40,588 bases of DNA from an uncultured Methanosarcinales archaeon (GCA_964647565.1 CAZYIM010000027.1:1-40588); one strand, 5' to 3'. Positions 793 through 37,683 are shown, counted from the first letter of the stretch. Notes: a model not told the origin generated them from the letters alone. Translations and numbers: made by a program.

Positions 793-1701
793 TCATTTTG
801 TTATACCCCCATTCGACTTACGCCCATTTTTTCGCTTATTAACTAAGTATATTATTATGTATAAAATAACTGCTAAGACTGTTAGTAATAACGCAACATT
901 ATTACTTTTTGAAATACCAACGAAAGAAAGCAAGGCGGAAAAACCTTTTGTAACCAGTGCTAATACACTTAAATAAAAAATTAAAAGTATACTAGATCTA
1001 ATAATAACGATGGGTGATTTTAGAGATGGATTTTCTTTAAAGAAGGTTTCTTCTCCAAAGATTATTTCTCTAAGCTTATGAAATGCTAGTGAAAAAAAAT
1101 TTTCTACAATATTTTGATTTGTATCCTTTATGTTAATCTCTTCACCAAGTTGAACCTTAGTTGGTTTCTGTGTATCATCAGATGATTTTATTATTAATTC
1201 ACATTTATTGATGTATTCATCAATTATTTCAATAAGTTTAGATTTTACTGATGAAATAATGCGAGAAAGATGGGCGGGAGGAACATGAGCTTGAAAGACA
1301 GGTACATTAAAAACTTCTCTTAGTGCTTGTCCATTTACAGGATTTAGTATCCAGTATGATTCTATATGCTCTTCTATAAATGAAATTTCTTGGCCAACAG
1401 GATATTTTTGTGCGTCTTTTTTGATTTTTTGGTCTTCAATAATTATTGGTCTTTTATACTCATCGTAAAATTGACAATATGTTATTCTATATTCAGGAAG
1501 ATTTTTTTCTAATTCACCAACAGTTTTAAATTTATGATAACCATTTAATTCCAAATCTATCCATTCAAAATTTACTGAATCGTTTAATGATTTTGCAATG
1601 GATCTTACTGTTAGCAATGCTGAACTAATTTTAATCTCATCCTTAATAAGGTCGTCTTTAGTTTGAATTAACTGTTGTATGATTCTAGGATAATTCACCA
1701 T
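793..1701 (-). CDS. Hypothetical protein with a soluble N-terminal domain and two C-terminal TM helices.
   Basis: 302-aa ORF. C-terminal ILLIFYLSVLALV... and VALLLTVLAVILYIIIYLV hydrophobic helices. No motif recognised with confidence. Confidence 0.55.
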   Translation of the reverse strand: MVNYPRIIQQLIQTKDDLIKDEIKISSALLTVRSIAKSLNDSVNFEWIDLELNGYHKFKTVGELEKNLPEYRITYCQFYDEYKRPIIIEDQKIKKDAQKYPVGQEISFIEEHIESYWILNPVNGQALREVFNVPVFQAHVPPAHLSRIISSVKSKLIEIIDEYINKCELIIKSSDDTQKPTKVQLGEEINIKDTNQNIVENFFSLAFHKLREIIFGEETFFKENPSLKSPIVIIRSSILLIFYLSVLALVTKGFSALLSFVGISKSNNVALLLTVLAVILYIIIYLVNKRKNGRKSNGGITK

Positions 1702-22873: not shown

Positions 22874-23830
22874 ATGCAACTAGATGTGCTGGATAAAAAG
22901 ATCTTGAATCAGCTCAACCAAAAGCCAAGGGCGAGCTTCTCAGAGATTGCCAAGAAAGCAAGGGCATCCAAGGAGATTGTGAACTACAGGGTTAGCAGGC
23001 TAAAAAAGGAGGGCATAATAAAAGAATTTGTGACCATCTTTGGCCTGGGCTACTGGGCATATAAGGTGCTTATAGATTTTAGCCAGATAGATGTTGAAAA
23101 AGAAAAGAAAATCCTGGAATACCTGACTAATCATCCCAATGCCAACTGGGTGACATCGTGCTCTGGAGGCTGGGACCTGGTCTTTGCAGTCATGGTAAAG
23201 GACCCTGAGCACTTTGATAAGGTGTTAAGGCAGATAATGGGCAAGCTGGGCAAGCATGTAAGGGAGTATAAGGTGGCAACCAGCATCGGCTCCCAGACAT
23301 TCGGCCATACATACATCCTGGGCCGGGTCAAAGAGCCTGAGAAGATACAGAGAAAGAAAAAAGAGTTTGATTTTGATGAAAAAGACAAACAGATTGCCAG
23401 GATACTGCATAAGAATGCAAGAGCTCACTTGATGGAGATCTCAACCCAGACAGGCATCCCAGTTGACACAGTCAACTACAGGATAAAGAAGATGGAGCAG
23501 AACTCGATCATCAAGAGATACCGGATGATATTAAACCCTTCTGTATTGGGCTATCATCGGTACGAGATATTCATCAGATGCATCAACCTGACTGATCCGA
23601 TAATATCCAAATTCAGGGAATACGCAAAACAGAATAAACACATAGAATACTTCAGCAGGTGCGTGGGCAGCTGGGATATTGAATTGACTGTACATTTCAA
23701 GACCAGCGATGAGCTGAGAAAATTTATCCTGGAAGTCAAACAAAATTTCGGCGAAAACATACAGAAATTCGAGACAATAACACTCTTTGAAACACTTAAC
23801 TATGTCTACTTCCCAGAGGAGTTTGTTTAA
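22874..23830 (+). CDS. Tandem (single-chain double) Lrp/AsnC-family transcriptional regulator.
   Basis: 318 aa containing two HTH+RAM modules: DKKILNQLNQKPRASFSEIAKKARASKEIVNYRVSRLKKEGII and DKQIARILHKNARAHLMEISTQTGIPVDTVNYRIKKMEQNSII. Confidence 0.7.
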   Translation: MQLDVLDKKILNQLNQKPRASFSEIAKKARASKEIVNYRVSRLKKEGIIKEFVTIFGLGYWAYKVLIDFSQIDVEKEKKILEYLTNHPNANWVTSCSGGWDLVFAVMVKDPEHFDKVLRQIMGKLGKHVREYKVATSIGSQTFGHTYILGRVKEPEKIQRKKKEFDFDEKDKQIARILHKNARAHLMEISTQTGIPVDTVNYRIKKMEQNSIIKRYRMILNPSVLGYHRYEIFIRCINLTDPIISKFREYAKQNKHIEYFSRCVGSWDIELTVHFKTSDELRKFILEVKQNFGENIQKFETITLFETLNYVYFPEEFV

Positions 23831-34680: not shown

Positions 34681-36201
34681 TTACCAGCCGCCGACAGAGC
34701 CGCCTCCGCCTCCGCCGCCCCATCCTCCGATAGAGCCGCCTCCGCCTCCACCACCAAAACCGATGTTGGAGCCGCCCATACCAGGGCTACTGAAGATCGT
34801 GGTTGAGGTACTTGTATTCCAGGATGAGCTGGAGCTAGATGTTGACTTGAAGTACTGTGCATTATCGATCTTGTTCCACAGCTGTCTCTTGGTGATCCTG
34901 TCTGCCATGTACCTATCCATCTCTCTTTCGATGTCCAGGTCAGATTCAAAACGGGACCTGCTTGCATCATAGTCATAATCCTCAAAGTCATCAAGCACGT
35001 CCTTCAATCCTGATATATTGCTTGACAGTTCTCTTCGTTTTTCGACCAGTGTCTTGGATTGTTGCCTGTAATCGCCGATGGTCTCATTGATATCGTAAAT
35101 CTTTTCAACAAGCATGTCGTCCTTTCGAGTAGGAGTTTGCTCTGCAATCTCCCTTAACTTTTCAAGTTCGTAACTTCCAAGGACCTTTTTTAATGTTTCC
35201 AACGCCCTTCCAAAATAAGCGCCTTTTGTATCCTGAAGCTTCTCCCTCTGGTCTGCATATTCTCTGTAGAGATTATCTTCATGGGTGATCTTGGCAATCA
35301 CATCGTTTCGCTTGTTGGTCAGGTCATCCATCTCAACTAGGATATTAGTAAGGCCGTGCTTGTCAGATACCTCTTTCTCGTATTCATTCAGCTTTGTGAT
35401 AAAGTTGTCTCTGTATTCCTTTCTATTATTGGTCGCTTCCTCAAGAGTCTTAGGAATATTGATCAGACGCTCATAGCTCTTCTTGGCCTGATCAAAGGTT
35501 ATCTTGTTGCCGTCAGCATCTTTCAAACCTACTTTATTGGCCAGCCATTCATCGCCTTTCTTTAGAAGTCCTTTTCCTTTGTATTCAGCTGATCCAAATT
35601 GCCTCTTGAAATAAAGGTATTTGAAGACCTTGTTGTTCTCAAAGACTTTTTTCTTGGCTTCTACTTTCTCTTTCCACTTATCCAGCCTTTGGACACTCCG
35701 ATCATAGCTCTGCTCTGCCTTTTCAGCATCAAAGACCATGTTGACATAAGTTTTGTTCTTGTCCAGCTCTTCAACAACTGCATTTTGTACTTGCTCCCTG
35801 AGCTTGGATTTTTCATGCAGGACCGTTGACTGCTCTTTTAGCTTGAGCTGCAGATTCTTTTTTGTCTGGTGCGAACTTAGCATGTCTTTCTCGATCTTCT
35901 GCCTGGCTGCCTGTTTCTCCAGATAAAGATTTCGGACTTGCTCTTCTGCCCTCTCAAGCTCTTCCACTTTCTGATCGATATCATCGATACCTTCTGCAGT
36001 CAGCTCTTCAAGATAGACATTGGCTAAATTCCTATAGGTCTCTACCCTGTCTGTCTGCAACCTTCCGATCTTGTTCTCGAATGAGGAGATATCTCTTTTG
36101 AGTCTTGATTCCTTCCTTTCTTCAGCATCAATCCTGCTGTCGATTTCGTCGTAAATATCTGATCCGTAGTAGCTCATTTTATTTCCTCCAGTTGACATCA
36201 C
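34681..36201 (-). CDS. Long coiled-coil protein with C-terminal poly-Gly/Trp tail (GGGGGGGSIGGWGGGGGGGSVGGW).
   Basis: 506 aa. About 430 aa of heptad-like charged helical sequence, then S-rich linker and G-rich tail. Likely true start MSYYGSD (36177), leaving a 1-nt gap to the upstream gene. Confidence 0.6.
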   Translation of the reverse strand: MMSTGGNKMSYYGSDIYDEIDSRIDAEERKESRLKRDISSFENKIGRLQTDRVETYRNLANVYLEELTAEGIDDIDQKVEELERAEEQVRNLYLEKQAARQKIEKDMLSSHQTKKNLQLKLKEQSTVLHEKSKLREQVQNAVVEELDKNKTYVNMVFDAEKAEQSYDRSVQRLDKWKEKVEAKKKVFENNKVFKYLYFKRQFGSAEYKGKGLLKKGDEWLANKVGLKDADGNKITFDQAKKSYERLINIPKTLEEATNNRKEYRDNFITKLNEYEKEVSDKHGLTNILVEMDDLTNKRNDVIAKITHEDNLYREYADQREKLQDTKGAYFGRALETLKKVLGSYELEKLREIAEQTPTRKDDMLVEKIYDINETIGDYRQQSKTLVEKRRELSSNISGLKDVLDDFEDYDYDASRSRFESDLDIEREMDRYMADRITKRQLWNKIDNAQYFKSTSSSSSSWNTSTSTTIFSSPGMGGSNIGFGGGGGGGSIGGWGGGGGGGSVGGW

Positions 36202-36616
36202 TTGTGGATTGCTGGCTTAACTTGACGCCTCTCTTGAGTGTTCCACCATAAGCACCTTTCATGACCACTCTATCCTGAAGATAACCCCTATCTTTCTTAG
36301 CAAAGATAAAATCATCAAGCCGGCCATCGCTTTTTGCATCTTCTTTCAACTGCTCTTCCTTCCGCTCAGAGATCTCCTCTCCCCACATAGACTCGGTCCG
36401 TGTCTTACCATAAAGGTCTGTGATCTGACGATTTATCACATTTCCTGTATATCGTCCATTCTTGAATTCCTTTGCGCGCACAATCAGGAACTTAGTGATC
36501 TTGCCTGATCTGTAATCCCTGAAATAATCCACTGTCTTCCATCTTGAGCTTAGTTCAGCAACAACATGGTAGCAGAGATCAAGCTCTGCATAGAGATTTT
36601 TCATTTCTGACATCAC
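36179..36616 (-). CDS. Hypothetical protein (middle gene of three-gene operon).
   Basis: 145-aa ORF. Confidence 0.5.
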   Translation of the reverse strand: MMSEMKNLYAELDLCYHVVAELSSRWKTVDYFRDYRSGKITKFLIVRAKEFKNGRYTGNVINRQITDLYGKTRTESMWGEEISERKEEQLKEDAKSDGRLDDFIFAKKDRGYLQDRVVMKGAYGGTLKRGVKLSQQSTSDVNWRK

Positions 36617-36621
36617 TGAAT

Positions 36622-37683
36622 TTAACTCGGTTGCTTTCCCTGGTTAAGATGAAGCTTGCCATTTGCATATAGCTGCTCATTACTGTTATTTGCTGCAGCG
36701 ACTTTAGATAGATTCTTGATATTTTTGTATACATTGTCAAGTTGAGGACCCAAGTCAATTATATCCTCAATATTGTCGCCTAGTCCCTGGAGATTTCTTA
36801 AGGCGTTTTGCCCCTTGTCCAGGTTGCCTCTTTCAACATTCATGACTCCAGTCCTATAGGTTGATTCTGCCTTGTTAGCCAGAACATTAGGACCGTCAAG
36901 GTTCCTGATCTCCTCAATGGTTGTATCAAGGCTTCTCTTCACCTGCTTGAGGAATGCTCTTTCTTTGACAATGCCATCAGCAGTCATAAGATATGCATTG
37001 ACGCCATCGAGAGTCCTGACAATAGGTCCTAGTTCATCCATCACAGCTTCGTAGTTGTGCTTGGTGACCTTGTCATCTGCCTCTCCCCTGTTGTCGCAAT
37101 ACATGGATAAGAAATTGTCTGTGGTCTTAAGAGCGTTCTCTGAGTTGATCAATAGAGTGCTTAGATTCTCTGCATTAGGCTGGCTACGGTCTCTTGCGTC
37201 TGGCGCGAGCCTGTCAATTGTATCGAGCAGGTGCTGCCTGCTTTCATAGGCAATCTCCACCCTTTCCTCAACAGCCTTTTCAGCCCTTGCAATCTTTCTT
37301 GCGCCTGCTGTCAGCATGCTGATGCCAGCTGTTAGGCCAACAGCACTTATCACTGCGATTGGCACCACTCTTGTCCATAAATACTTGGTCCTGTCTATAA
37401 ACCAGTTGACTTTCTTGTTTTCAGGCATATAGATATCAAAATCCCTTGAGAACTGACTTTCGAGCCCTGCTTGATCTTCTGTATCAAGATATGTTTCTGC
37501 TATTTTTCGCTCATCAATCATCTCATTAAGGTTTTGTGGAATCATAGTGGTTGTGGACTTTTTTGATCCGTCTTTCCCAGAGTTAGTTTCATCCATCATT
37601 TTAAGTTGGGAAAGGCAGAAATGATTATAAATCTTTCGTAAAATTGCCACTTGAAAATAGAAACATATGGACGTGATAAACAT
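36622..37683 (-). CDS. Membrane-anchored helical protein (single TM VVPIAVISAVGLTAGISMLTAGA, then about 240-aa helical domain).
   Basis: 353-aa ORF. Probable true start MMDETNSG or MIPQNL. First gene of the operon. Confidence 0.55.
   Translation of the reverse strand: MFITSICFYFQVAILRKIYNHFCLSQLKMMDETNSGKDGSKKSTTTMIPQNLNEMIDERKIAETYLDTEDQAGLESQFSRDFDIYMPENKKVNWFIDRTKYLWTRVVPIAVISAVGLTAGISMLTAGARKIARAEKAVEERVEIAYESRQHLLDTIDRLAPDARDRSQPNAENLSTLLINSENALKTTDNFLSMYCDNRGEADDKVTKHNYEAVMDELGPIVRTLDGVNAYLMTADGIVKERAFLKQVKRSLDTTIEEIRNLDGPNVLANKAESTYRTGVMNVERGNLDKGQNALRNLQGLGDNIEDIIDLGPQLDNVYKNIKNLSKVAAANNSNEQLYANGKLHLNQGKQPS

What the first reader, a model, noticed from the sequence alone, without database searches (positions are those of the whole stretch)
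34681..37683. Three-gene operon: membrane-anchored helical protein, small protein, and 500-aa coiled-coil protein with a poly-Gly/Trp tail
Tightly packed (1-5 nt spacers) minus-strand operon. The last product is about 430 aa of continuous coiled coil ending in S-rich linker and GGGGGGGSIGGWGGGGGGGSVGGW. This architecture is reminiscent of intermediate-filament-like, PspA/ESCRT-III-like or LemA/TPM-partner proteins, but none match confidently. Located 2.4 kb from the vault gene. Candidate membrane-remodelling or scaffold module.
Basis: inference. Interest (0 to 1): 0.5.

Follow-up and report, generated by a model that had tools for sequence, protein, structure and literature searches.

The report
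Uncharacterised membrane-anchor and scaffold gene pair
These genes are a diverged copy of a widespread but unstudied gene cassette: a membrane-anchored DUF6384 protein, here broken in two by a frameshift, followed by a long helical protein with a floppy glycine-rich tail; the cassette also occurs in bacteria, archaea, giant plasmids and a jumbo phage, and its function is unknown.

Summary
The ORFs, tight spacing and Gly/Trp tail are real. The "three-gene operon" is really two genes.

g1 (36622-37599) and g2 (36179-36613) are the two halves of one DUF6384-type single-pass membrane protein ("B"). A -1 frameshift splits them, and it sits exactly on a G_GGA_AAG slippery heptamer (36634-36640). Related loci encode B as one 301-516 aa ORF.

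g3 (34681-36177, "C") belongs to a large family that Pfam does not hold: 328 hits at E<=1e-10, collinear over the full length. Members have a ~430-aa antiparallel helical core, a Ser/Gly-rich disordered tail and a near-invariant C-terminal Phe/Trp.

B lies directly upstream of C in 25 of 25 loci that could be assessed. A third, highly conserved ~390-aa helical protein ("A") is adjacent in 18 of 24, but not in this window. The cassette occurs in DPANN and Methanosarcinales MAGs, bacterial contigs, Pseudomonas and Bradyrhizobium plasmids, and Yersinia jumbo phage phiR1-37, where transcript levels are very high.

No Pfam, NCBIfam, PADLOC, PHROG or PDB sequence or fold match links it to PspA/ESCRT-III, SPFH, LemA, intermediate filaments or the nearby vault gene.

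The most likely role is a membrane-tethered cytoplasmic scaffold. That is inferred, not shown.

The parts
37624..37631 (-). TTTATAAT, a TATA-box-like element about 28 nt upstream of the first ATG of g1. This would fit an archaeal promoter with a leaderless transcript.
   Evidence: Read directly from the sequence. This is inference; no archaeal promoter tool was available. The sigma-70 scan found nothing above the level seen in shuffled sequence.
36622..37599 (-). g1, the 5' part of a frameshift-split DUF6384-type gene ("B"). It encodes a short, diverged cytoplasmic N-terminal region, one TM helix and a long spacer of about 220 aa.
   Evidence: ORF and gene calls. tblastn and BLASTP align it to residues ~40-350 of intact 435-516 aa B proteins. 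It scores 148.9 bits against a custom B profile. The Pfam DUF6384 hit is below threshold at 18.7 bits.
37303..37368 (-). The single transmembrane segment of g1 (aa 77-98, VVPIAVISAVGLTAGISMLTAG).
   Evidence: Kyte-Doolittle maximum of 2.13. It aligns with the TM segment of all B homologues.
36634..36640 (-). G_GGA_AAG, an X_XXY_YYZ slippery heptamer in the zero frame of g1, inside the 6-codon stretch where a -1 shift joins g1 to g2.
   Evidence: Read from the sequence and checked by conceptual translation. The -1 frame is open from 36643 and the g1 stop is at 36622-36624. Homology to intact B proteins continues in the -1 frame from 36637.
36179..36613 (-). g2, the 3' part of the same B gene. 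It corresponds to the conserved C-terminal domain of DUF6384. It has no Shine-Dalgarno sequence and no signal peptide of its own.
   Evidence: BLASTP to the C-terminal ~130 aa of B proteins, with E down to 3e-12. Alignment A4. Sub-threshold Pfam DUF6384 hit at profile positions 235-299.
36185..36189 (-). GGAGG Shine-Dalgarno sequence, 7 nt upstream of the g3 ATG.
   Evidence: Read from the sequence.
34843..36177 (-). g3 core (aa 1-445), the helical domain of the "C" family.
   Evidence: 328 homologues at E<=1e-10, collinear over aa 1-444. AF2 pLDDT is mostly above 90. Invariant positions are G5, Y187, L188, D353, S408 and F410.
34684..34842 (-). g3 tail (aa 446-498). It is Ser/Thr-rich and then Gly-rich, with two S[IV]GGW units, and ends in Trp-COOH.
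   Evidence: pLDDT is below 40 here, so the region is predicted disordered. A 36-nt tandem repeat encodes it. 119 of 139 full-length homologues end in Phe or Trp.
34639..34660 (-). Terminator-like hairpin followed by a T-rich tract, about 20 nt after the g3 stop.

Best explanation
Identity (confidence about 0.9). The locus is the B-C core of a conserved, self-contained A-B-C cassette of unknown function.
- B is a DUF6384 single-pass membrane protein. It has a cytoplasmic N-terminal helical region, one TM helix, a variable spacer and a conserved C-terminal domain ending in Trp.
- In this genome B is split into g1 and g2 by a -1 frameshift located on a G_GGA_AAG heptamer.
- C (g3) is a cytoplasmic, elongated antiparallel helical bundle. 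It carries a disordered Ser/Gly tail whose last residue is almost always Phe or Trp.

Mechanism (inferred, about 0.35). B is inserted N-in and recruits C to the cytoplasmic face of the membrane through its N-terminal region. The tight B-C spacing suggests translational coupling and a stoichiometric complex. The flexible tail of C acts as a tether, and its Gly-spaced aromatic tips dock into a partner pocket or into the membrane interface. This would link many copies into a membrane-bound scaffold. Where present, A is the slowly evolving soluble partner that the scaffold organises. The likely role is maintenance or organisation of the cytoplasmic membrane. That is a function independent of envelope type, which would explain why the cassette works in Gram-negative bacteria, archaea, megaplasmids and a jumbo phage.

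In this window the copy lacks an adjacent A. Full-length B is either made by -1 frameshifting, or only the membrane-anchored g1 part is used.
For: Shown:
- g3 belongs to a large family that is collinear over its full length (alignments A1 and A2).
- The AF2 model is confident and its tail is disordered.
- 116 of 139 homologues end in Phe and 3 in Trp.
- B lies directly upstream of C, on the same strand and within about -20 to +34 nt, in 25 of 25 assessable loci.
- A is adjacent in 18 of 24.
- Only A, B and C recur among the neighbours.
- The g1+g2 fusion aligns without a gap at the junction to intact B proteins. It scores 217.7 bits as one domain, against 148.9 and 53.7 bits for the separate halves.
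- The N-terminal flank of the TM helix has more Lys/Arg than the C-terminal flank in most of the 13 B proteins with a real TM segment, and never fewer. It ties in two, one of them g1. This predicts N-in topology.
- L002 keeps only the N-terminal region plus the TM helix of B (125 aa), still next to A and C. The anchor part can therefore suffice.
- Some bacterial C tails carry an amphipathic stretch and a basic patch before the terminal GF.
- E. coli YgcG, a membrane protein, ends in the same kind of tail.
- The phiR1-37 genes g190-g192 are A-B-C. Their transcript levels are among the highest in the part of the table read, at all infection stages, and they are not listed as virion proteins (PMC4848604 Table S2).

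Inferred: the B-C contact, the tail docking, the scaffold and the membrane role.
Against: - There is no experimental or homology-based functional evidence for any of A, B or C.
- No interaction or structure prediction could be run for A, B or a complex. The single-sequence model of g2 failed (pLDDT 38).
- The window copy lacks A within 40 kb. It has lost the first conserved N-terminal motif of B, and B is frameshifted. It may be partly decayed and not representative.
- If the C-terminal domain of B is extracytoplasmic, a separately translated g2 would be in the wrong compartment.
- The fold searches returned only generic coiled-coil arms, so "scaffold" rests on shape, not ancestry.
- The positive-inside topology call is only moderately strong, and for g1 itself it is ambiguous (4 vs 4 K/R).
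Confidence: 0.4

Rival explanations
1. Conflict system. A-B-C is a mobile defence, abortive-infection, superinfection-exclusion or anti-defence module whose output acts at the membrane.
For: - The distribution is sporadic and includes mobile elements: IncP-type Pseudomonas megaplasmids, rhizobial plasmids and a jumbo phage.
- A is 55-68% identical between bacterial and archaeal contigs, which implies horizontal transfer.
- The window also holds AbiTii and a HEPN/nucleotidyltransferase pair.
- In L002 the cassette is near a STAND/FtsK-like ATPase.
Against: - No meaningful PADLOC hit for any component from four sources. The best hits were coiled-coil noise at E>=4e-4.
- No recognisable effector domain such as a nuclease, NADase, protease or pore former.
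- None of the flanking genes recurs.
- A is unusually conserved for a conflict protein.
- Very high transcript levels throughout phage infection fit a structural or abundant role better than a sensor.
Confidence: 0.2
2. Decaying remnant. In this genome the cassette is no longer functional as a unit. A has been lost, B is inactivated by a frameshift and N-terminal erosion, and g2 is a leftover reading frame. Only g3, if anything, is still used.
For: - No A in 40 kb.
- The -1 frameshift lies at a homopolymer-type run, where indels are common.
- g2 has no Shine-Dalgarno sequence or signal peptide.
- The g1 match to the B profile starts only at profile position 89.
- g3 departs from nearly invariant family residues at P57, G426 and the terminal F.
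- This is the most divergent family member found. Its nearest homologue is 33% identical.
Against: - g2 stays open for 152 codons in an AT-rich genome and keeps the conserved residues of the domain: A47, D92, K107, G110 and W142.
- g3 is intact, with its Shine-Dalgarno sequence and tail.
- The same split gene calls appear in NCBI, JGI and ENA assemblies.
- Five other loci also lack an adjacent A but have an intact B and C.
- L002 shows that a B without the C-terminal domain is tolerated.
Confidence: 0.25
3. Programmed -1 ribosomal frameshift. Both a short form of B (g1, 324 aa, without the C-terminal domain) and the full-length form (~472 aa) are made from one mRNA by slippage on G_GGA_AAG.
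For: - A canonical X_XXY_YYZ heptamer sits in the zero frame, inside the only 6-codon stretch where a -1 shift yields a gap-free fusion. My estimate of the chance of this is about 6/256, or 2%.
- Homology to intact B continues across the junction in the -1 frame.
- g2 has no ribosome-binding site of its own.
- From my own knowledge, the same heptamer drives the lambda G/GT frameshift.
Against: - The downstream RNA structure is not unusual (z = -0.88).
- There are no close relatives in which to test conservation of the site.
- A one-base deletion in a GGGAAAA-type run would leave the same sequence.
- The second split B, in L010, has no canonical slippery site.
Confidence: 0.2
4. Cytoskeletal, intermediate-filament-like protein. 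C polymerises through coiled-coil rods, and its keratin-like glycine/aromatic tail mediates lateral association.
For: - Heptad-like segments at aa 9-43 and 362-389.
- Fold hits are to long coiled-coil arms.
- The Gly-rich tail with spaced aromatic residues resembles keratin glycine loops (my own knowledge).
Against: - AF2 gives a confident intramolecular bundle, not an extended parallel rod.
- Most of the protein lacks a strong heptad signal.
- No Filament-type Pfam hit in 72 members.
- The obligate pairing with a TM protein is not typical of intermediate-filament-like proteins.
Confidence: 0.08
5. A PspA/ESCRT-III, SPFH or LemA-TPM type envelope-stress module by descent, or a partner of the neighbouring vault-like protein.
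For: Only analogy of architecture: soluble helical proteins plus a small membrane anchor. The tail of C resembles that of the TPM protein YgcG. The MVP-like gene is 2.4 kb away.
Against: - No PspA_IM30, Snf7, Band_7, LemA or TPM Pfam hit for g1-g3 or for the tested A and B proteins. None of these families is among the 25 most-matched families of the 72 C homologues.
- hhalign against E. coli PspA gave probabilities of 0.8% for C and 0.3% for A.
- No LemA, TPM or MVP gene occurs in any of the 29 related loci.
Confidence: 0.03

Closest known systems
Pfam DUF6384 (PF19911), annotated by NCBI as 'DUF6384 family protein'
   Same: g1 and g2 together are collinear with this family. g1's C-terminal part maps to profile positions 137-177 and g2 to 235-299. 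Orthologous neighbours of g3 homologues score 159-198 bits. The single TM helix, the C-terminal domain and the terminal Trp are shared.
   Different: The family has no known function, and no paper in the searched library mentions it. The window copy is split by a frameshift, has a ~220-aa spacer insert like the archaeal and Pseudomonas long forms, lacks the first N-terminal motif, and falls below Pfam's threshold in each half.
PspA with PspB/PspC, or LiaH with LiaI: soluble helical effectors recruited by small membrane anchors
   Same: The general layout is similar. There are one or two soluble all-helical proteins and a bitopic membrane protein in one tight operon. A membrane-maintenance role is plausible.
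   Different: No sequence, profile or fold relationship was found. There is no ESCRT-III hairpin signature. The proteins are much larger and C has a low-complexity tail. The resemblance is in how it might work, not in family membership.
TPM-domain membrane proteins such as E. coli YgcG
   Same: YgcG ends in ...[32 protein letters not shown]. This is the same Ser/Gly-rich tail with spaced aromatic residues and a terminal aromatic residue as in the C family.
   Different: In YgcG the tail follows transmembrane segments of a TPM-domain protein. C has neither a TPM domain nor a TM segment, and no TPM or LemA gene is linked to the cassette. What this tail type does is not known to me.
Antiparallel coiled-coil arms of SMC/MukB/Rad50 and chemoreceptor signalling domains
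Disordered linker plus conserved C-terminal docking tip, as in bacterial SSB (...DDDIPF) or the FtsZ C-terminal peptide (my own knowledge)
   Same: A folded core is followed by a flexible, low-complexity, Gly-rich linker, with a short conserved motif at the extreme C-terminus ending in an aromatic or hydrophobic residue.
   Different: There is no sequence relationship. The partner pocket for the C tail is unknown. The tail often carries several G-G-F/W units rather than one tip.
Phage lambda G/GT tail-chaperone -1 frameshift at G GGA AAG (my own knowledge)
   Same: The same heptamer is present, in the correct zero-frame register, just before the stop codon of the upstream frame.
   Different: No evidence of use was obtained here. 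There is no significant stimulatory RNA structure. The organism is probably an archaeon, and the genes are unrelated.

Membership tests
DUF6384 (PF19911), for g1+g2 | Pfam profile match above the gathering score (25 bits) | tested here: not met
   g1 scores 18.7 bits and g2 20.5 bits, each below 25. However, the two hits are collinear on the profile. Against a profile built from 10 bona fide members, the conceptual fusion scores 217.7 bits (E 4e-68). I treat this as membership by transitive homology.
DUF6384 (PF19911), for g1+g2 | Architecture: N-terminal helical region, one TM helix, C-terminal conserved domain ending in Trp | tested here: met
   The TM helix is at aa 77-98. The C-terminal domain motifs SMWGE, K107, G110 and W142 are kept. 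The first N-terminal motif (LxIMDVAxxLR) is missing.
DUF6384 (PF19911), for g1+g2 | Encoded as a single polypeptide | tested here: not met
   The gene is split by a -1 frameshift at 36634-36640. 21 related loci have one ORF, and L010 is split elsewhere.
A-B-C cassette (defined here) | B immediately upstream of C on the same strand | tested here: met
   25 of 25 loci with upstream sequence, including the window.
A-B-C cassette (defined here) | A (~390-aa helical protein) adjacent | tested here: not met
   A is absent from the whole 40.6-kb window by profile search and tblastn. It is present in 18 of 24 assessable loci.
C family (defined here), for g3 | Full-length collinear homology, invariant residues, and a Ser/Gly tail with a C-terminal aromatic residue | tested here: met
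   aa 1-444 align to aa 1-427 of the homologues at E down to 1.5e-52. G5, Y187, L188, D353, S408 and F410 are kept. The tail ends in GGW.
PspA/IM30/Vipp1 and ESCRT-III (Snf7) | Profile match to PF04012/PF03357, or ESCRT-III fold | tested here: not met
SPFH/Band 7 and LemA | Profile match to PF01145 or PF04011 | tested here: not met
   There are no hits at E<=0.1 for the window proteins, and neither family is among the 25 most-matched families of the C homologues at E<=0.01.
TPM-domain protein, or partner of one | A TPM domain in the protein, or a TPM/LemA gene in the neighbourhood | tested here: not met
   No TPM Pfam hit. Only A, B and C recur in 29 loci. Only the tail type is shared with YgcG.
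Intermediate-filament-like or crescentin-like | A long uninterrupted heptad rod that forms parallel dimers, and filament formation | tested here: inconclusive
   The heptad signal is patchy, at 13% above the 99th percentile (my own crude score). AF2 shows an intramolecular bundle. Oligomeric state and filament formation cannot be tested with these tools.
Known anti-phage defence systems (PADLOC-DB 2.0) | Profile match to a component of a catalogued system | tested here: not met
   No hits for the window proteins. The homologues gave only weak coiled-coil noise, with a best E of 4e-4.
Vault-associated module | Co-occurrence with an MVP-like gene | tested here: not met
   tblastn of the window's MVP-like protein against 29 related loci (283 kb) gave no hits.
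Programmed -1 frameshift site | A slippery X_XXY_YYZ heptamer in frame, plus a downstream stimulatory structure, plus conservation | tested here: inconclusive
   The heptamer is present and in register. The downstream fold is not significant (z = -0.88). Conservation cannot be tested because there are no close relatives.

The most novel reading that the evidence does not exclude
A-B-C is a previously unrecognised, horizontally mobile membrane-scaffolding system, cytoskeleton-like or Psp-like in function but unrelated by descent. It is shared by bacteria, DPANN and methanogen-related archaea, megaplasmids and a jumbo phage. C proteins are tethered to the membrane by DUF6384 and cross-linked through Gly-spaced aromatic tail tips. 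In this archaeon, full-length DUF6384 is produced by programmed -1 frameshifting at G_GGA_AAG.
Probability: 0.2. Interest if true: 0.75.

Novelty: categorically new. Interest (0 to 1): 0.55.

Why it matters
The cassette has three proteins with no characterised relative.

It is kept as a unit across both prokaryotic domains and on very different mobile elements. One component (A) is 55-68% identical between bacterial and archaeal contigs. In a jumbo phage its transcript levels are among the highest reported. All of this points to an unrecognised, envelope-independent cellular function.

It also gives a handle on a recurrent and unexplained feature of prokaryotic membrane-associated proteins: the Ser/Gly tail ending in Phe or Trp, which TPM-domain proteins such as YgcG share.

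The cassette sits in tractable systems, namely Pseudomonas megaplasmids and Yersinia phage phiR1-37. The question can therefore be tested directly by deletion, localisation and pull-down experiments.

The window copy adds a possible archaeal -1 frameshift site.

Caveat: "new" here means uncharacterised and without detectable relatives. It does not mean a demonstrated new mechanism. The window copy is only a diverged, possibly eroded member.

Tried and rejected
- Word-indexed homologue searches with g3 and g1 found only the query itself. The exhaustive HMMER search solved this for g3.
- The search for related loci with g3 alone found nothing in genome contigs. With the broad alignment A2 it had no pattern to use. 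A tighter alignment, A3, worked.
- The same search against viral contigs found nothing.
- PDB sequence searches with g3 and with the C, A and B profiles gave only coiled-coil noise.
- A and C are not paralogues (hhalign 0.2%).
- PHROGs gave nothing useful, and NCBIfam gave nothing.
The single-sequence model was unusable (pLDDT 38). No structure could be obtained for A or for intact B.
- The window's 397-aa ORF next to the vault gene was tested as a possible A. It is unrelated.
- The vault gene and all other flanking genes were tested for co-occurrence and none recurs.
- Literature searches for DUF6384, for the NCBI name "merozoite surface protein 3b", and for TPM/LemA glycine-rich tails gave nothing relevant.
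- The g1 ORF extension to 37683 was rejected as the start. Gene callers use 37599 or 37596, and a TATA-like box lies inside the extension.


Full report
**1. What is in the sequence**

Three minus-strand ORFs fill the reported interval.
- g1 is 36622-37683 as the maximal ORF. Public gene calls use the ATGs at 37599 or 37596, giving 325 or 324 aa.
- g2 is 36179-36613 (144 aa).
- g3 is 34681-36177 (498 aa). The longer GTG-initiated form is not supported. The N-terminus MSYYGSDIY aligns with the family consensus MxxSGxxVY, with G5 invariant.

The sequence shows the following directly:
- an 8-nt gap between the g1 stop (TAA, 36624-36622) and the g2 ATG;
- a 1-nt gap between the g2 stop and the g3 ATG;
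- a GGAGG 7 nt before the g3 ATG, and no such element before g2;
- a TTTATAAT about 28 nt before the g1 ATG. This would suit an archaeal leaderless transcript, but that is inference.

A hairpin plus T-tract follows g3. g1 has a single hydrophobic segment at aa 77-98. g3 ends exactly as reported, in ...GGGGGGGSIGGWGGGGGGGSVGGW. This tail is encoded by 2.5 copies of a 36-nt repeat.

**2. g3 is a real, large, unnamed family**

The word-indexed searches found only the query. An exhaustive HMMER scan of 1.84 billion cluster representatives with aa 1-445 gave:
- 668 hits at E<=1e-3;
- 328 hits at E<=1e-10;
- 73 hits at E<=1e-30.

Nearly all are 460-530 aa long and align from residue ~1 to ~444, at 23-33% identity. 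This is family-level homology, not coiled-coil noise. An alignment of 72 members has six invariant and about 26 nearly invariant columns.

Every member inspected has the same layout: a core of about 430 aa, then a Ser/Tyr/Gly-rich low-complexity stretch, then Gly-spaced aromatic residues. Of 139 full-length sequences, 116 end in Phe and 3 in Trp. Some high-GC bacterial members insert an amphipathic stretch and a basic patch before the terminal GF.

No Pfam, NCBIfam, PADLOC or PHROG family covers g3 or its homologues. No PDB sequence matches.

**3. Shape of g3**

AlphaFold2 with the 72-sequence alignment gives mean pLDDT 84 and pTM 0.71.
- Helices span 5-61, 67-140, 142-180, 228-273, 276-316 and 351-400.
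- A small non-helical insert lies at 183-227.
- Short strands near both ends of the core suggest that the termini meet.
- The tail at 450-498 is disordered.

The protein is therefore an elongated bundle of helices folded back on themselves. It has no specific solved relative.

My crude heptad score puts 13% of residues above the 99th percentile of shuffles. The signal is concentrated at aa 9-43 and 362-389. "Continuous coiled coil" overstates this.

**4. g1 and g2 are one gene**

Pfam gave two sub-threshold but collinear DUF6384 hits. The g1 C-terminal part maps to profile positions 137-177, and g2 to 235-299.

In every related locus a single DUF6384-type ORF sits directly upstream of the g3 homologue. 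Its N-terminal ~350 aa match g1 and its last ~100-130 aa match g2.

tblastn of intact proteins against the window shows the switch of frame. For L004, aa 93-354 align in the g1 frame and aa 361-485 in the g2 frame. The g2-frame homology begins at 36625-36637, which is upstream of the g2 ATG.

The junction has these features:
- The two frames differ by -1.
- The -1 frame is open from 36643 and the g1 frame stops at 36624.
- Inside this 6-codon overlap lies G_GGA_AAG (36640-36634), in the X_XXY_YYZ register of the g1 frame.

A conceptual -1 shift there gives a 472-aa protein (...LHLNQGK-ATELNSV-MSEMK...). It aligns with intact orthologues with no gap at the junction. It scores 217.7 bits as one domain against a profile of ten B proteins, compared with 148.9 and 53.7 bits for the two halves.

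The split gene calls recur in NCBI, JGI and ENA records, so a single-assembly error is unlikely.

I cannot decide between three readings: programmed frameshifting, a recent one-base deletion in a homopolymer-type run, or a tolerated fission.
- The downstream RNA fold is unremarkable (z = -0.88).
- There are no relatives closer than 33% identity in which to test conservation.
- A second split B, in L010, lies at a different position without a canonical slippery site.

**5. The conserved unit is a three-gene cassette, A-B-C**

Related loci came from five sources:
- exact-protein look-ups (L001-L003);
- GTDB genomes (L004-L011: Woesearchaeota, Pacearchaeota, Methanosarcinales and an unclassified archaeon);
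- metagenomes (L015-L029);
- plasmids (L012 from a P. aeruginosa IncP megaplasmid and L013 from a Bradyrhizobium plasmid);
- phages (L014, Yersinia jumbo phage phiR1-37).

*B-C adjacency.* B lies immediately upstream of C on the same strand in all 25 loci where upstream sequence exists. The gaps run from about -20 to +34 nt. Several of these loci are near-duplicates of one lineage.

*State of B.*

| State | Loci |
|---|---|
| Intact single ORF, 301-516 aa | 21 |
| 125-aa form with N-terminus and TM helix only | 1 (L002) |
| Split | 2 (the window and L010) |
| Cut off by a contig end | 1 (L028) |

*The third protein, A.* A is about 380-400 aa and has no Pfam or NCBIfam match. NCBI names it "cell surface protein" or "merozoite surface protein 3b".
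- It is adjacent in 18 of 24 assessable loci.
- It is divergently transcribed in the metagenome and MAG loci, and co-directional (A-B-C) on the plasmids and the phage.
- It is 55-68% identical between bacterial and archaeal contigs, whereas B and C are only 20-40% identical.

*Nothing else is conserved.* No other neighbour recurs. None of the window's flanking genes appears in any of the 29 loci. That includes the MVP-like gene, the 397-aa ORF, and the DUF1015, GNAT, AP-endonuclease-like and DUF4013 genes. The vault adjacency is therefore coincidental.

*Absences in the window.* The window has no A in its 40.6 kb. Its g1 lacks the first conserved N-terminal motif of B.

**6. Features that bear on mechanism**

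*B.* The protein has a conserved N-terminal helical region, one TM helix, a spacer of 0-250 aa and a conserved C-terminal domain ending ...QITxW. The N-terminal flank of the TM helix carries more Lys/Arg than the C-terminal flank in most of the 13 B proteins with a real TM segment, and never fewer. This predicts an N-in orientation. For g1 itself the counts tie at 4 vs 4.

*A and C.* Neither has a signal peptide or a TM segment.

*L002.* This locus shows that the N-terminal region plus TM helix of B can suffice beside A and C.

*The tail.* The tail type of C also occurs at the cytoplasmic end of the E. coli TPM-domain membrane protein YgcG, which ends ...[19 protein letters not shown].

*Expression in phiR1-37.* In the published RNA-seq table, mean total gene reads at the early, middle and late stages are:

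| Gene | Early | Middle | Late |
|---|---|---|---|
| g190 | 32,683 | 39,000 | 41,993 |
| g191 | 13,922 | 14,582 | 16,006 |
| g192 | 16,261 | 20,881 | 24,416 |

These genes have no temporal class. They are among the highest values in the part of the table I read, and they are not marked as virion proteins (PMC4848604).

**7. Interpretation**

*Shown.* This is a B-C pair of a conserved, mobile A-B-C cassette. B is frameshift-split. C is a helical bundle with a disordered, aromatic-tipped tail.

*Inferred.* B anchors C, and A where present, at the cytoplasmic face of the membrane. The tail is a flexible tether whose Gly-spaced aromatic tips dock on a partner or on the membrane interface, giving a multivalent scaffold. 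The function concerns the cytoplasmic membrane itself, which would explain portability across envelope types and carriage by megaplasmids and a jumbo phage. I put this at about 0.35.

*Rivals.*
- A conflict (defence or anti-defence) system, 0.2. It fits the mobility but lacks any effector domain or PADLOC hit.
- An eroded, partly non-functional copy in this genome, 0.25. This is compatible with either of the functional models.
- Programmed -1 frameshifting as the way full-length B is made, 0.2.
- An intermediate-filament-like polymer, 0.08.
- Descent from PspA/ESCRT-III, SPFH or LemA-TPM, or a vault partnership, 0.03. Pfam scans, hhalign against E. coli PspA (0.8% and 0.3%) and synteny argue against it.

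**8. Novelty and verdict**

Only B is catalogued, and only as a domain of unknown function. No paper in the searchable library mentions DUF6384 or A's NCBI name, 'merozoite surface protein 3b'.

By every test available here, the cassette has no characterised relative, so I rate it as lying outside known kinds. This is a statement about missing knowledge, not about a demonstrated new mechanism. The window's copy is a diverged and possibly decaying member.

Interest is moderate to good (0.55). The value lies in the cassette as a whole, in the unexplained tail signal, and in the possible frameshift, all of which are directly testable in Pseudomonas megaplasmids and phiR1-37.

Noticed in passing
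window 29918-32290 (-) and 28635-29828 (-): A 790-aa major-vault-protein-like gene (Pfam MVP_shoulder 3.9e-28, Vault_3, Vault_4) sits in a prokaryote-like contig. A 397-aa ORF with no family match follows it. Neither occurs near the cassette in any related locus.
   Followed up: partly
window 36634-36640 (-): A G_GGA_AAG slippery heptamer lies in the zero frame of g1, exactly where a -1 shift fuses g1 to g2. It could be a programmed frameshift site or the scar of a one-base deletion.
   Followed up: partly
L014 (Yersinia phage phiR1-37, NC_016163.1 128018-131849): The jumbo-phage genes g190, g191 and g192 are a complete A-B-C cassette. Published RNA-seq lists them with very high read counts at all infection stages and not as virion proteins.
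   Followed up: partly
L012 (P. aeruginosa plasmid NZ_CP017294.1 287826-291738); L013 (Bradyrhizobium plasmid NZ_CP082162.1 454832-458379): The cassette is co-directional (A-B-C) on conjugative plasmids of 398 and 602 kb. A is annotated there as 'merozoite surface protein 3b' or 'cell surface protein'; nothing found here supports either name.
   Followed up: partly
L001-L009 A genes, e.g. L001 5731-6924 (-), L005 4250-5434 (-): Protein A is 55-68% identical between bacterial contigs and Methanosarcinales or Pacearchaeota MAGs. The adjacent B and C are only 20-40% identical. So one component is strongly constrained, or recently transferred, while its partners evolve fast.
   Followed up: partly
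L010 5437-7004: This is a second, independent -1 split of the DUF6384 gene, at a different position (237 + 278 aa). It has no canonical slippery heptamer.
   Followed up: partly
L002 6629-7006: A naturally short DUF6384 of 125 aa, with only the N-terminal region and the TM helix, is still flanked by A and C.
   Followed up: no
L031 4712-5584 (E. coli K-12 ygcG): The TPM-domain protein YgcG ends in ...[20 protein letters not shown]. This is the same Ser/Gly tail with a terminal aromatic residue as in the C family. It hints at a shared, unexplained C-terminal signal in membrane-associated proteins.
   Followed up: partly
window 27257-28296 (-): An overlapping HEPN (154 aa) and nucleotidyltransferase (195 aa) gene pair, which looks like a MNT/HEPN toxin-antitoxin module.
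   Followed up: no
window 793-1701 (-): An AbiTii-domain protein (Pfam 9.9e-16), a marker of abortive-infection systems.
   Followed up: no
window 22874-23830 (+): A 318-aa protein with two AsnC/Lrp-type HTH plus ligand-domain halves and a weak NirDL-like hit, so possibly siroheme-decarboxylase-like. This is one of the few hints that the host is an archaeon.
   Followed up: no
window 34688-34776: The glycine-rich tail of g3 is encoded by 2.5 copies of a 36-nt tandem repeat (77% matches). The number of S[IV]GGW units could therefore vary by slippage.
   Followed up: no
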